This document shows, in pieces, positions 1-31,279 of a DNA stretch of 64,000 nt. Location: assembly GCF_045037415.1 (NCBI RefSeq), contig NZ_CP173438.1; one strand, given 5' to 3'. A model generated the notes under the pieces. The model searched no databases. It was given only the letters and a program-made list of their open reading frames with translations, and was not told the DNA's origin. This DNA comes from Escherichia coli. Its GTDB lineage: Bacteria > Pseudomonadota > Gammaproteobacteria > Enterobacterales > Enterobacteriaceae. Position 1 is the stretch's first letter, and each line of letters starts with the position of its first letter. The translations under genes were made by a program, and so were the position numbers.

Positions 1-41
1 GCCTCTTTTGACATCAGCATTTTTATCTCTTTTCATAACCA

Positions 42-1814
42 TCACTTTGATGGGTGTAGATTGATAAAATGTTTTTTGATTTCAATAATTGAATCAAGTA
101 TGGGTTTGAATAATGAAAAATCGATAGTTTTTCTATTTTCCCTTACTATATAAGTAGCAAATCTATCTTTTCCAAATGTAGTAGAACTGTCATGATTATT
201 GCTTTTATCGAAGCTTTTTCCATTATACTTCATTTGCAAAACTTTTGGTTCAAAAAAATCCTCTAGTGAAGAATAGTTATCCCCTGGTAATAACGGAGTA
301 AAAAGAACATATAAATTACTCTCTAAGTGATAAAACGCCCCTTTTCTAACATCCTCCGCTTTTTTTGGTAGATGCGAATAATCCTTTATTATTTGATTTA
401 TGAAGTCAGATGGCCCTGTGTCATTATCTAATAAAATTATCACTGGATTTTTAGGAGGCTGTTTTTCATACGCTTTACAAAGTAAACCATGTCGTCTGAA
501 AAACCTCGAATAGTCTGCAGCTCCACCAGACAAATCGAGAAAATATTTTTTCTTGTCATTGGTTTTAAATAAATTAACTTTTAACACTCTATTCTTTGTG
601 TTTTTTTCCTCTCTAACTAACTGAGGGTAATCCAAAAACAAAGAATCAATTGCACACTTAAGATAAACCGGGTCAGTTTTCCCTTCTGTTAAGATTGTTA
701 TTTGCTCATTTCCATAGAAATTTTTATAGTATAGGAATTTGCTGTATGCTTTCTCTCTGGAGTTAAGTCTCTGCTTAAAATCCAACCCAAATCCTTTAAC
801 CACATATCTCTCAGGACGCGCATTTTTCTTTGCTTCCACATTATTATATTTATCAAGCATATCGATAAATGCAAATCGCCCTTCTAATTCACTAAGGGTG
901 CCCTTTCTATGTTTTCCATCTTTCTCAATAAGTGTATACGAACCTTCAAAGTATAAAGAATGCGCCATCGCTCTTGTATTCTTTATATACTCTCTGCTTA
1001 CATTTATTTTTTTATTTACAGTTAAACCTGTAACTTGCTGTCTTGATGTACACCTAGACACTCTGTTTTTATTATGGTTTAAAGTGAAGCCTGCACGATG
1101 AATTTCTTCTACCAATATCTTACCTGGTTCGTTTTCTTTCTCATTAGAAACTAATGCATCAGGGATGTTTTTTTTGTTTGTTGAAAACGTAATGTCATCT
1201 GCATAGCGGCTGTAACTACAACCATATGTGACTGCTAGCTTTGATAATCTGAAATCTAAAATCCTACAAATAAGATTAGTTATTACTGGAGAACAAGGGC
1301 TTCCTTGCGGAAGCGATCCATCCAGGCAGGCTATCTGCGCAATAATGGTTGCAACATTTGGATGTAACTTGAAATTTTGGTTTGCAATAAAATATCCTCG
1401 CACGCGACCAAAATTAAAGGATGGGAAGAAATTCTCAATATCAATATTAAATACAATATTTTTATCTCGATGCCTCTCAGCATTTGTAATTATAGTTTTA
1501 TTCTTCTCAAAACCATGTGATACATTTTGTTTAATATTATTTTTTGCCCAAATTTCTTCCTGGCATATATATAGAAGTTCAGAAAGTCGTTGTTGAATAT
1601 CTTTCAGTTTTTCATCAGGAGCAAAGATCTCCCGCTCTCCTCCAGACTTTTTCTTTATAGTAAATTTTTTGTATTGATTTTCTGGCCTTATTCTATACAA
1701 AACATTAGTCAGAAATGTAACTTTAATCTGAAGCAAATCAGCCAGTTCAAATTTGTTACAACAAGCCTGCAGCCTTGCCAGATAGGTAGGTTTAAACATA
1801 ACAGTAAATTCCAT
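42..1814 (-). CDS. Retron-type reverse transcriptase fused to a C-terminal TOPRIM domain (Ec67/Retron-Eco2-like architecture)
   Basis: 590-aa ORF. RT motifs present: NAERH (NAxxH), LPQGSPCSP, YSRYADDITF (YADD) and RQQVTGLTVN (retron-typical VTG). C-terminal part has ILTEGKTD and ILLDNDTG, matching the TOPRIM Glu and DxD. msr/msd-type inverted repeats end 17 nt upstream. The region is visibly AT-rich. The start could be 1814 or the Met at 1799; there is no strong SD. Confidence 0.9.
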   Translation of the reverse strand: MEFTVMFKPTYLARLQACCNKFELADLLQIKVTFLTNVLYRIRPENQYKKFTIKKKSGGEREIFAPDEKLKDIQQRLSELLYICQEEIWAKNNIKQNVSHGFEKNKTIITNAERHRDKNIVFNIDIENFFPSFNFGRVRGYFIANQNFKLHPNVATIIAQIACLDGSLPQGSPCSPVITNLICRILDFRLSKLAVTYGCSYSRYADDITFSTNKKNIPDALVSNEKENEPGKILVEEIHRAGFTLNHNKNRVSRCTSRQQVTGLTVNKKINVSREYIKNTRAMAHSLYFEGSYTLIEKDGKHRKGTLSELEGRFAFIDMLDKYNNVEAKKNARPERYVVKGFGLDFKQRLNSREKAYSKFLYYKNFYGNEQITILTEGKTDPVYLKCAIDSLFLDYPQLVREEKNTKNRVLKVNLFKTNDKKKYFLDLSGGAADYSRFFRRHGLLCKAYEKQPPKNPVIILLDNDTGPSDFINQIIKDYSHLPKKAEDVRKGAFYHLESNLYVLFTPLLPGDNYSSLEDFFEPKVLQMKYNGKSFDKSNNHDSSTTFGKDRFATYIVRENRKTIDFSLFKPILDSIIEIKKHFINLHPSK

Positions 1815-1830
1815 TATTGATTATGTTAAT

Positions 1831-1960
1831 GCACATGCAGGTACTCTTACGCATTTAACGGTGACGCCAAGATGACTTGACGGCAGTCAGAGGGCGAATA
1901 CTCCCGACCTTGTTAACACTGATTGCGATACCACAACCAACAAATCTACCTGCATGTGCC
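1831..1960 (-). ncRNA. Retron msr-msd non-coding RNA (template/primer for msDNA)
   Basis: Perfect 13-nt inverted repeats GCACATGCAGGTA (1831-1843) and TACCTGCATGTGC (1947-1959) form the a1/a2 pair. On the transcribed (-) strand a G (complement of 1946) directly follows a1 and is the candidate 2'-branching G. An internal imperfect long hairpin (CGCC..GACT / AGTC..GGCG, about 1866-1900) fits an msd stem. The element lies immediately upstream of the RT in the canonical msr-msd-ret order. Confidence 0.75.
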
Positions 1961-2369
1961 GTATTAAATTAGCATAGTCATCATATAACTCAAGCCCCCA
2001 ATCAATTTTTTTCAAAATCCTCAATAAGTTATAGATGGTTTGCGTTCTGTTCATTTCTGGCATCAGAGTGATGATTAGGCAAGTTAGCTGGGAAAATTTA
2101 TCCGGAGTATATACAAAGAAAGTAGTCAGCCCAGTTGAATCATCTAAACAAGACCAATTAACTAATTTATTTAAATGAAAAATAATGCTTTTGAGCTAAC
2201 CAATTATGCACTTAAGCTAAATTTACCGTTTTTGGGGCTAGCCCAACATCGAGGGCGCATAAGCTTTAGCCCACTTTTACTTTCCTGTTTTCTTTAGTAA
2301 CAGAAGGTTAACTATCAAATATTTTTGTTGGGCTATGTGGGCTAACAGTTTTCATATTTACGTGTTTTT

Positions 2370-2609
2370 TTATTCTTCTCCGGTTTCCGTTTCAGATACC
2401 GGAGTAAACAACAGCGTATAAGCCCAGGGACGTGCATGCTTGAGGTGTCTCAGCCGTGGCATACGTATCAGCCATCCCTCCACGCTGGTGGACTTTTTGA
2501 GCATTCCAGCCTCATGAAGGATTCTGCCGGCAGTATCCTTGCTGAGAGGAGTAGAACCTACGCCCTTCGCATTACGAATGCGAGCTAACTCCAAAATGAG
2601 TACGAACAT
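2370..2609 (-). CDS. Hypothetical 79-aa protein in the retron islet (possible small DNA-binding protein)
   Basis: ORF only. No family recognised, no clear SD inspected, and it lies in accessory DNA. Confidence 0.25.
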   Translation of the reverse strand: MFVLILELARIRNAKGVGSTPLSKDTAGRILHEAGMLKKSTSVEGWLIRMPRLRHLKHARPWAYTLLFTPVSETETGEE

Positions 2610-2718
2610 GAGTACAAAAAAAATATATCATTAAATGTAGTATAAATTTCAATCAGATACAGCAAAAATTACAATTCAACGTCTAATTCCGCTAATACTA
2701 CTCTGGCGGTTAATAACG

Positions 2719-2752
2719 AGCCATTATGTGAGTTGCACGTAATGGCTTTTTT
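2719..2752 (+). terminator. Strong intrinsic terminator with no obvious upstream gene
   Basis: 12-bp stem (agccattatgtg / cacgtaatggct, one G-U pair), 5-nt loop, followed by T6. Confidence 0.6.
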
Positions 2753-2877
2753 ACGCCTGCTACGCGTCTTCTTTCAATTCTGAGTTACCAAAACTCATAA
2801 TCAGACTCCTGACAATATTAACAATGCAGCTTTTATGTGATAACAATCACAGTGCATTAACCGTTCAAGAGTTTGTC

Positions 2878-3054
2878 ATGAAAAAAACATTTACCTTCAG
2901 CCTGTTAGCAATTGTCTTTGCAAGCCTGTTGAGTGCTTGTGTTCCCCACCATCATCACCGCCACAGCGATGGCCCTCGTGGTCCTGCGCCCTCCGGTAAG
3001 CCAATGCCACCTTCAAATGGTGGACCAAATCACGGCAGTCATGGTCGCTATTAA
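2878..3054 (+). CDS. Small predicted lipoprotein with a His/Pro/Gly-rich mature part
   Basis: MKKTFTFSLLAIVFASLLSAC gives a signal peptide plus lipobox L-S-A-C. The mature peptide is CVPHHHHRHSDGPRGPAPSGKPMPPSNGGPNHGSHGRY. The internal Met of the 76-aa ORF was chosen as start. Confidence 0.55.
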   Translation: MKKTFTFSLLAIVFASLLSACVPHHHHRHSDGPRGPAPSGKPMPPSNGGPNHGSHGRY

Positions 3055-31128: not shown

Positions 31129-31279
31129 GTCTGTTCTTGTCAGCAGATCAATACTGATTCAGGCTATCAATATTTGTCGCTGCATAGACTGCTGATTTTT
31201 CGTTCTCTTATCCTGTGCTCACGCGGCCTTCTGGCGACAGCGTCCATCCAGCAGAAAGGAAAAATATCACCTGGTTTAA

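What the first reader, a model, noticed from the sequence alone, without database searches (positions are those of the whole stretch)
42..1960. Complete retron: msr-msd ncRNA plus RT-TOPRIM fusion in an AT-rich islet next to dhaR
What the sequence shows:
- A 590-aa ORF carries the retron-RT hallmarks NAERH (NAxxH), LPQGSPCSP, YADD and VTG.
- It continues into a C-terminal domain of about 230 aa with TEGKTD and LLDNDTG, which match the TOPRIM Glu and DxD.
- Seventeen nt upstream of its start, perfect 13-nt inverted repeats (1831-1843 and 1947-1959) bracket 103 nt containing a long imperfect hairpin.
- On the transcribed strand a G directly follows the a1 repeat (complement of 1946).

Established knowledge: this is the canonical msr-msd-ret layout. 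RT-TOPRIM fusions define the Ec67/Retron-Eco2 family, which acts as a single-gene abortive-infection anti-phage system.

Inference: this is an intact defence retron. From my memory of the Ec67 RT the sequence is clearly related but substantially diverged, and the ncRNA is different, so it may be an uncharacterised family member with its own trigger specificity. No integrase or flanking repeat is visible, and the left border of the islet is outside the window.
Basis: partly seen in the sequence, partly recalled or inferred. Interest (0 to 1): 0.85.

Follow-up and report, generated by a model that had tools for sequence, protein, structure and literature searches.

The report
Ec67-family retron in E. 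coli ST131
This is a complete but ordinary anti-phage retron of the well-studied Ec67/Eco2 family: one reverse transcriptase-nuclease fusion gene plus its small RNA. Public databases already label it correctly in more than 500 E. coli genomes.

Summary
ORF 42-1814(-) encodes a 590-aa reverse transcriptase fused to a C-terminal TOPRIM nuclease. A 131-nt ncRNA (1830-1960, minus strand), closed by a perfect 13-nt inverted repeat, lies directly upstream.

- **Protein family.** It scores far above the curated cut-off of NCBIfam "retron_Ec67_fus" (702 vs 450 bits). It matches PADLOC RT-Toprim_I-C at 5e-214 and is 50.5% identical to the solved Ec67/Eco2 protein.
- **Catalytic residues.** All experimentally defined residues are present: YADD 204-207 and E377/D381/D463/D465.
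- **ncRNA.** A covariance model finds one copy upstream of the RT in 86 of 89 related loci. The a1/a2 helix shows compensatory changes at 12 of 13 pairs, and the branching G is invariant.

The identical locus is in 510 of 5426 complete E. coli genomes, many labelled ST131, and RefSeq names it correctly. It sits beside a Lamassu system at the end of a ~28-kb island inserted at ychF. It most likely works like Eco2: msDNA cages the nuclease, and phage nucleases release it to cut tRNAs. Already known; low interest.

The parts
42..1814 (-). RT-TOPRIM fusion gene (590 aa from the first ATG; RefSeq WP_000476153.1 starts at Met6, coordinate 1799, 585 aa)
   Evidence: ORF list. PADLOC RT-Toprim_I-C 5.3e-214 over residues 11-584. 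NCBIfam NF038237 retron_Ec67_fus 702 bits against a cut-off of 450. PDB 9i2f Ec67 4e-188. 50.5% identity to Ec67 over 578 aa. RefSeq annotation.
1020..1658 (-). Reverse transcriptase domain (residues 53-265), including NAERH (1470-1484), LPQGSPCSP (1287-1313), YADD active site (1194-1205) and VTG (1026-1034)
   Evidence: Pfam RVT_1 2.7e-18. Motif coordinates. D206/D207 are invariant in 29 relatives and correspond to Ec67 D201/D202, whose mutation abolishes defence (PMC12916289).
45..782 (-). C-terminal TOPRIM nuclease domain (residues 345-590). Catalytic E377 (684-686), D381 (672-674), D463 (426-428), D465 (420-422)
1830..1960 (-). Retron ncRNA (msr-msd), 131 nt
   Evidence: Covariance model R1 scores 144 bits, E 5e-38, and this is the only hit in the 64-kb window. 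The model was built from an alignment that includes this window sequence, so that score is circular by itself. The independent support is the one hit directly upstream of the RT in 77 related loci that were not in the seed alignment. Alignment to the Ec67 ncRNA.
1947..1959 (-). a1 arm of the inverted repeat (GCACATGCAGGTA on the RNA strand)
   Evidence: Perfect 13-nt inverted repeat. Across 87 sequences the helix is 96.4% paired, with changes on both sides at 12 of 13 pairs.
1946..1946 (-). Predicted branching guanosine (2'-OH primer for msDNA synthesis)
   Evidence: The A-G-A directly after a1 is invariant in 87 of 87 aligned ncRNAs. It aligns with G15 of Ec67, the experimentally determined branch point (PMC12916289). 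Branching itself was not tested.
1919..1940 (-). msr hairpin 1 (UUGGUUGUG-GUAU-CGCAAUCAG)
   Evidence: Predicted in the single-sequence fold and the alignment fold. 91% of cells paired, and 9 of 9 pairs show changes on both sides across the family.
1885..1909 (-). Second hairpin at the msr/msd boundary (GGUCGGG...CCCUCUGAC region). Its 5' side corresponds to the Ec67 stretch that stays hybridised to the 3' end of the msDNA
   Evidence: Alignment fold. Weaker support: 73% paired, 7 of 7 pairs vary on both sides. The register with Ec67 G52-A58 is read from the alignment.
1844..1908 (-). Predicted msd template, giving an msDNA of about 65 nt (5'-CTCTTACGCATTTAACGG...CTCCCGAC-3')
   Evidence: Inferred from the register with Ec67, where the same boundaries give its known 67-nt msDNA. 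The template start GC-GTAAGAGT is nearly invariant in the family. The length was not measured.
1831..1843 (-). a2 arm of the inverted repeat (UACCUGCAUGUGC)
1966..1993 (-). Putative promoter of the ncRNA-RT transcript: -35 TTGAGT (1993-1988), extended -10 TGcTAATTT (1974-1966)
   Evidence: Read by eye. The motifs and their spacing recur in the closest relatives L083, L085, L086 and L087. Homology with the Phytobacter cassette starts at about 2032. The consensus scan found no minus-strand site here, so this is inference only.
2675..2686 (+). Island end: 12-bp direct repeat TTCAACGTCTAA, a copy of the last codons and stop of ychF
   Evidence: The same 12-mer lies at the ychF stop at the other end of the island. 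Island-free genomes join ychF directly to window 2675 onward.

Best explanation
This is an intact type I-C retron of the Ec67/Retron-Eco2 family, carried as a ~2.1-kb cassette at the end of an integrative defence island in E. coli ST131.

Shown by sequence analysis:
- A single transcript region on the minus strand holds a 131-nt ncRNA and then a gene for a reverse transcriptase fused to a TOPRIM nuclease.
- The RNA has the family's a1/a2 helix, its invariant branching G, the msr hairpin and the conserved template start.
- The protein has the complete RT and TOPRIM active sites.

Inferred from the experimentally characterised homologue Eco2 (PMC12916289, PMC12405507):
- The RT uses the 2'-OH of the G at 1946 to prime copying of the msd template into a branched msDNA of about 65 nt.
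- RT-TOPRIM and msDNA assemble into an oligomer, a trimer in Eco2, in which the msDNA holds the TOPRIM site inactive.
- A phage DNA endonuclease (DenB or A1 for Eco2) degrades the msDNA.
- The freed TOPRIM then cuts tRNA acceptor stems and other RNAs. Translation stops and the infection is aborted.
For: - Family assignment: PADLOC RT-Toprim_I-C 5e-214. NCBIfam retron_Ec67_fus 702 bits against a cut-off of 450. Full-length match to the solved Ec67 protein at 4e-188 and 50.5% identity. Ec67 itself hits the same two PADLOC models best.
- Active sites: YADD, E377, D381, D463 and D465 are invariant in relatives. They align with the residues whose mutation kills Eco2 defence.
- ncRNA: homologous to the Ec67 ncRNA. 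Apart from the window itself, 86 of 89 related loci have one model hit on the RT strand directly upstream of the RT; 77 of these loci were not in the model's seed alignment. The a1/a2 helix is 96% paired with compensatory changes at 12 of 13 pairs, against 29-41% paired when partners are slid. The AGA branch motif is invariant.
- Single-gene system: genes flanking the retron differ between relatives. They are Lamassu in ST131, unknown genes in Phytobacter and Enterobacter, and P2 prophage genes for Ec67 and others.
- The ORF is intact and at least 99% identical in 510 complete genomes.
Against: - Nothing was measured. msDNA production, oligomeric state, trigger, RNA target and phage defence are all inferred from a homologue only 50% identical.
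- The central msd stretch, which in Eco2 forms the three-way junction that cages TOPRIM, is not conserved in sequence. It folds only weakly as DNA.
- The loop that forms the only protein-protein trimer contact in Eco2 (residues 325-347) is diverged and one residue shorter here.
- No Pfam TOPRIM model and no Rfam family match.
- No promoter passed the consensus scan.
- Conservation across 510 genomes largely reflects one clonal lineage and says little about selection. IS1 has split the gene in a few strains.
- The covariation alignment was fitted to the model, which biases pair counts towards the structure.
Confidence: 0.85

Rival explanations
1. It is a genuine type I-C retron that makes msDNA, but it differs from Eco2 in what it senses or cuts. 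It might have a different phage trigger, a different msDNA architecture (no three-way junction or no trimer), or DNA rather than tRNA as substrate.
For: - Only 50.5% identity to Ec67.
- The central msd segment and the predicted msDNA length (about 65 nt against 67 nt) differ.
- The trimer-contact loop is diverged and has a one-residue deletion.
- The nearest structural relatives after Ec67 are DNA-cutting OLD and GajA nucleases.
- The Eco2 paper notes that some susceptible phages lack DenB and A1, so the triggers are not fully known even for Eco2.
Against: - The catalytic residues, the msr and the template-start motifs are conserved.
- The model of the C-terminal domain superposes on the Eco2 structure at 1.8 A over 239 residues.
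- Nothing in the sequence points to a specific alternative.
Confidence: 0.2
2. It is a retron by descent that is silent or non-functional in this host: not transcribed, or unable to make msDNA or to defend.
For: - No consensus promoter was detected.
- IS1 disrupts the gene in several ST131 genomes without obvious consequence.
- Conservation is clonal.
- The Eco2 paper reports slower growth of cells expressing Eco2 from a plasmid, so silencing could be favoured.
Against: - Full-length ORF with every catalytic residue.
- Perfect a1/a2 helix and an intact branch motif.
- The upstream 72 nt, with an extended -10-like motif, are conserved with relatives that share only the cassette.
- A 2026 preprint reports that transposon insertions in an ST131 island carrying 'Lamassu and Retron' change fitness in the gut. 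This suggests, but does not prove, that the island's genes are active. It is also only probable that this is the same island.
Confidence: 0.07
3. The RT-TOPRIM works together with the adjacent Lamassu genes (LmuA/LmuC/LmuB) as one composite system, not as a self-contained single-gene retron.
For: The Lamassu genes start 259 nt beyond the RT stop, on the same strand.
Against: - In Phytobacter the homologous cassette ends about 90 nt after the RT stop and different genes follow.
- Other relatives sit in P2 prophages or other contexts without Lamassu.
- Eco2 alone is sufficient for defence (PMC12916289).
Confidence: 0.03

Closest known systems
Retron Ec67 / Retron-Eco2 (type I-C1; PDB 9I2F, 9I2G, 9S1F, 9LM3)
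   Same: - ncRNA followed by a single RT-TOPRIM gene.
- Full-length alignment without large gaps.
- The same catalytic residues.
- A homologous ncRNA: 13-bp a1/a2 helix in the same register, AGA branch motif, msr hairpin, template start.
- The same best PADLOC models.
   Different: - 50.5% protein identity.
- The central msd sequence is not conserved, and the predicted msDNA is about 65 nt instead of 67.
- It lies in an integrative island at ychF, not in a P2-like prophage.
- It has not been characterised experimentally.
Closest uncharacterised orthologues: Phytobacter sp. (86%), Enterobacter hormaechei (83%), a metagenomic contig (72%), Serratia proteamaculans (71%)
   Same: Nearly identical ncRNA with the same a1, msr and template start. 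They share the upstream promoter-like motifs. The Phytobacter copy lies in a related island with the same backbone genes.
   Different: Different chromosomal sites (next to mutS in Phytobacter, a P2-like prophage in Serratia) and different neighbouring cargo. Several have a G-U instead of an A-U pair in a1/a2.
Other RT-effector fusion retrons (type XII RT-TIR, type XI RT-protease)
   Same: The RT domain is clearly related, at about 1e-100 against the PADLOC models, over the first ~330 residues only.
   Different: The C-terminal effector is TOPRIM, not TIR or protease. The NCBIfam TIR-retron score of 284 bits is below its cut-off of 600.
OLD-family and Gabija GajA TOPRIM nucleases
   Different: 12-13% sequence identity, no ATPase domain, and no Pfam TOPRIM match. 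In Eco2 the known substrate is RNA, not DNA.

Membership tests
Retron type I-C (Ec67 / Retron-Eco2 family) | Retron-clade reverse transcriptase with NAxxH, YADD and VTG motifs | tested here: met
   Pfam RVT_1. All the best PADLOC hits are retron RT models. Motifs located. Scores for group II intron maturase (43 bits against a cut-off of 300) and Drt2 (34.5 against 390) are far below their cut-offs.
Retron type I-C (Ec67 / Retron-Eco2 family) | Whole-protein score above the curated family threshold | tested here: met
   NF038237 retron_Ec67_fus: 702.4 bits against a cut-off of 450, covering profile positions 1-572 of 572.
Retron type I-C (Ec67 / Retron-Eco2 family) | C-terminal TOPRIM nuclease domain fused to the RT, with catalytic Glu/Asp and DxD | tested here: met
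Retron type I-C (Ec67 / Retron-Eco2 family) | ncRNA directly upstream on the same strand, closed by a1/a2 inverted repeats, with a conserved G after a1 | tested here: met
   Perfect 13-nt repeat. Model hit of 144 bits, with matching hits in 86 of 89 related loci. Compensatory changes at 12 of 13 pairs. The G is invariant in 87 of 87 sequences and aligned to Ec67 G15.
Retron type I-C (Ec67 / Retron-Eco2 family) | Single protein-coding gene, with no conserved accessory effector gene | tested here: met
   Neighbouring genes differ among relatives. Cassette homology with Phytobacter ends about 90 nt after the stop codon.
Retron type I-C (Ec67 / Retron-Eco2 family) | Production of 2'-5' branched msDNA | not testable with these tools
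   Needs nucleic-acid extraction and a gel with RNase and debranching treatment. The length of about 65 nt is only predicted.
Retron type I-C (Ec67 / Retron-Eco2 family) | Anti-phage defence that depends on both the RT and the TOPRIM active sites | not testable with these tools
   Shown for Eco2 only (PMC12916289, PMC12405507).
Subtype I-C1 (the Ec67 branch) | RT phylogeny groups it with Ec67 and not with I-C2 or I-C3 | tested here: inconclusive
   This protein and Ec67 share the same two best PADLOC models (PDLC02963 and PDLC02966, about 700 bits) and the same ranking of the others. No tree was built and the models carry no subtype label.
Rfam RNA families (Rfam has a retron msr family, as I recall from memory) | Match to a curated covariance model | tested here: not met
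   No Rfam family matched 1-3000 at E <= 1. The ncRNA is recognised only by the model built here from Ec67-family loci.
Retron type XII (RT-TIR) and St85-type retron RT | Score above the family cut-off | tested here: not met
   NF042941: 284 bits against 600. NF038233: 196 bits against 235.

The most novel reading that the evidence does not exclude
This half-diverged Eco2 orthologue has a different msd core and a different trimer-contact loop. It may assemble differently or respond to a different set of phage nucleases than Eco2. As a lineage marker of the pandemic ST131 clone, paired with Lamassu on one island, it may measurably shape that clone's phage susceptibility or gut fitness.
Probability: 0.25. 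Interest if true: 0.35.

Novelty: already known. Interest (0 to 1): 0.15.

Why it matters
It matters little for discovery. The family, its structure and its mechanism were published in 2025-2026, and standard annotation (PGAP, PADLOC) already labels this exact protein.

Its practical value is modest:
- The ncRNA, branch point and predicted msDNA, which RefSeq does not annotate, are now placed for a retron carried by about 9% of complete E. coli genomes. That includes the clinically dominant ST131 lineage, which is relevant to choosing phages for therapy against ST131.
- It offers a natural 50%-identity comparison for testing which Eco2 features are general: the three-way junction, the trimer loop and DenB sensing.

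Tried and rejected
- Rfam scan of 1-3000 at E <= 1: nothing.
- Pfam on the full protein and on the C-terminal 240 aa at E <= 10: no TOPRIM family, only a chance-level CdiI_4 hit. I therefore predicted and compared the fold instead.
- Phage collection, tblastn: no close relative. The best hit is 39% identical, in a faecal phage contig, so Ec67-type prophage copies are not in that collection at high identity.
- Consensus promoter and terminator scan: no minus-strand promoter upstream of the ncRNA.
- Literature: no hits for WP_000476153, none for ychF + genomic island + ST131, and none for the ncRNA sequence or accession in the supplements held for the retron census. No supplements are held for Mestre et al. 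2020. A first apparent 'Ec67' hit in an ST131 paper was a strain name, EC672.
- Rejected as genes: the overlapping ORFs inside the RT gene and the 58-aa ORF 1887-2063 across the ncRNA. They have no Pfam hit and no annotation.
- Rejected as families: group II intron RT, DRT2, RT-TIR and St85-type retron, all below their cut-offs.
Full report
**Observation.** The window holds a 590-aa ORF on the minus strand at 42-1814. The inverted repeat 1831-1843 / 1947-1959 is perfect, 13 nt long, with 103 nt between the arms. The base after a1 on the transcribed strand is G, the complement of 1946.

The repeat alone is only mildly unusual. 2.3% of random 3-kb sequences of the same first-order composition contain one, and the whole window has five. 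The fold of 1815-1975(-) beats shuffles with z = -2.8.

Three details need correcting. The a2-to-ATG gap is 16 nt, or 31 nt from the RefSeq start at Met6, which aligns with Met1 of Ec67. The interior forms several short hairpins, not one long one. The AT-richness is real: GC is 0.30-0.39 against about 0.50 in dhaR.

**The protein.**
- PADLOC's RT-Toprim_I-C models match at 5e-214 across residues 11-584.
- NCBIfam NF038237 'retron Ec67 family RNA-directed DNA polymerase/endonuclease' scores 702 bits against a curated cut-off of 450, over the whole profile.
- The solved Ec67/Eco2 protein (PDB 9i2f, 9lm3) aligns from residue 8 to 583 at 4e-188. Identity is 50.5% over 578 residues.
- Group II intron maturase, Drt2, RT-TIR and St85-type retron models all fall below their cut-offs.
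- In an alignment of 29 relatives, D206/D207 and E377, D381, D463 and D465 are invariant. They correspond to Ec67 D201/D202 and E374/D378/D460/D462, the residues mutated in the inactive Eco2 variants (PMC12916289).

**The TOPRIM question.** Pfam finds only RVT_1. It finds no TOPRIM family even when the C-terminal 240 residues are searched alone at E <= 10. An AlphaFold2 model of residues 345-590 is confident (mean pLDDT 94.4, pTM 0.91).
- Further down are T7 primase and a small Toprim protein (5.7), another OLD nuclease (5.6) and the retron Eco8 OLD nuclease (5.2).

The domain is therefore a TOPRIM of the OLD-like kind that Pfam's models do not reach.

**The ncRNA.** I recovered the Ec67 locus through a protein 99.8% identical to the PDB sequence, together with eight other relatives. 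The RNAs align over their full length.
- Shared features are the 13-bp a1/a2 helix in the same register, the AGAUUUGUUGGUUGUG...CGCAA.CAGUG msr hairpin, a second hairpin and the template start GCG(U/A)A(A/G)GAGU.
- Only the central msd stretch has diverged.
- A covariance model built from this alignment gave one full-length hit on the RT strand, ending a few tens of nucleotides before the RT start, in 86 of the 89 related loci searched. It gave one hit in the window, at 1830-1960(-), 144 bits. Nine of the hit sequences, including the window's, were in the model's seed alignment, so the 77 other loci are the independent test.
- On the resulting 87-sequence alignment the a1/a2 helix is 96.4% paired, with changes on both sides at 12 of 13 pairs. 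The msr hairpin is 91% paired, with changes at 9 of 9 pairs. Sliding the partners by 1-3 columns drops pairing to 29-41%.
- The alignment was fitted to the model, which favours the structure. The compensatory changes are nevertheless visible by eye in the MAFFT seed: GCACATGCAGGTA/TACCTGCATGTGC here against GCACATGTAGGCA/TGCCTACATGTGC, GCACATGTGGGCA/TGCTCACATGTGC and others.
- The A-G-A directly after a1 is invariant in all 87 sequences. It aligns with G15 of Ec67, the published branch point.
- Using the Ec67 register, in which the same boundaries reproduce its 67-nt msDNA, the template here is 1908->1844 and the msDNA about 65 nt. This is a prediction.
- Rfam has no matching family.

**Context.**
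- The same 2.4 kb occurs at 99% identity or more in 510 of 5426 complete E. coli genomes, always chromosomal. Many are labelled O25b:H4-ST131, and RefSeq names the gene correctly as WP_000476153.1.
- The retron is the last cassette of a ~28-kb island between dhaR and ychF. The island is flanked by a 12-bp direct repeat, TTCAACGTCTAA, which is the end of ychF. One copy lies at window 2675-2686.
- Island-free strains join ychF directly to window 2675 onward. A tyrosine integrase lies next to ychF and a second one mid-island.
- The three genes beyond the RT stop, outside the window, are Lamassu LmuA/LmuC/LmuB.
- A 2026 preprint mentions an ST131-specific island with 'Lamassu and Retron'. It is probably this island.
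- In Phytobacter the orthologous cassette (86% protein identity, 84% DNA identity) runs from about 72 nt upstream of a1 to about 90 nt past the stop. Different cargo follows, and then the same backbone genes. Other relatives sit in P2-like prophages, as Ec67 does. No neighbouring gene is conserved, which fits a single-gene system.

**Mechanism.** What is shown here is anatomy and homology. The mechanism is inferred from Eco2.
- The RT primes on the 2'-OH of the branching G.
- The branched msDNA links three RT-TOPRIM subunits and holds the TOPRIM site in an inactive state.
- The phage endonuclease DenB (A1 in T5-like phages) starts msDNA decay.
- The released TOPRIM nicks tRNA acceptor stems and other RNAs, which shuts down translation (PMC12405507).

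I consider it likely that this locus works the same way. The parts of Eco2 that build the cage are the least conserved here: msDNA nucleotides 29-50 and protein loop 325-347. Oligomer geometry and trigger range could therefore differ.

**Promoter.** A promoter is only inferred. TTGAGT (1993-1988) and an extended -10, TGcTAATTT (1974-1966), recur in the closest relatives. The consensus scan did not call them.

**Verdict.** The locus is a textbook member of a family whose structure and mechanism are published, and which annotation pipelines already recognise. It is uncharacterised only in the sense that nobody has tested this particular orthologue. Interest is low.

Noticed in passing
window 2675-2686; L092 1428-29755: The retron lies at the end of a ~28-kb island inserted at the 3' end of ychF and flanked by the 12-bp direct repeat TTCAACGTCTAA. 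Island-free E. coli join ychF directly to window 2675. The island has two tyrosine integrases, a group II intron and IS remnants.
   Followed up: yes
L001 4268-7783 (just left of the window): The three genes next to the retron, annotated 'ABC-three component system' or hypothetical, match Lamassu LmuA (1e-105), LmuC (4e-57) and LmuB (4e-176) in PADLOC. The island end is therefore a two-system defence locus.
   Followed up: partly
window 2593-2617; L092 29560-29620: Short GTACTCA-containing repeats (TTGTACTCAT, GTACTCATTTT) occur near both ends of the island. They may be recombinase or excisionase binding sites.
   Followed up: no
L094 (NZ_CP184097.1) and L095 (NZ_AP018784.2): In several ST131 genomes an IS1 splits the RT gene into 460-aa and 139-aa pieces. 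In others an IS5 sits upstream of the ncRNA, at about window 2290-2400, without touching the retron.
   Followed up: partly
window 2239-2345: Nested perfect inverted repeats (TAGCCCAACA/TGTTGGGCTA and TTAGCCCAC/GTGGGCTAA) in the spacer between the retron and the island end. Their function is unknown.
   Followed up: no
window 2370-2609 (-): A 79-aa ORF in a patch of higher GC (0.45). It has no Pfam hit and is not annotated in RefSeq. The stretch 2401-2540 is weakly similar (66%) to DNA just after the integrase gene of the Phytobacter island.
   Followed up: partly
L083 compared with L092: The Phytobacter and ST131 islands share the retron cassette and a backbone (HTH_35, DUF2787, RadC, integrase; 78-84% DNA identity). 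They differ in the cargo between them: Lamassu in ST131, two unknown genes in Phytobacter. This looks like a cargo-exchange slot.
   Followed up: partly
L002, L087-L091: Ec67 and several relatives occupy the same slot of P2-like prophages, between the replication/DinI side and the portal gene. In L002 a SIR2-family gene and an ATP-binding protein gene sit beside the retron.
   Followed up: no
window 31149-31227 (-): The only Rfam match above gathering score in the whole window is the sRNA C0299 (112 bits). No tRNA genes were found in the 64 kb.
   Followed up: no
whole window: Five perfect inverted repeats of 13 nt or more with arms within 200 nt exist in the 64 kb. Only the retron one was examined.
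   Followed up: no
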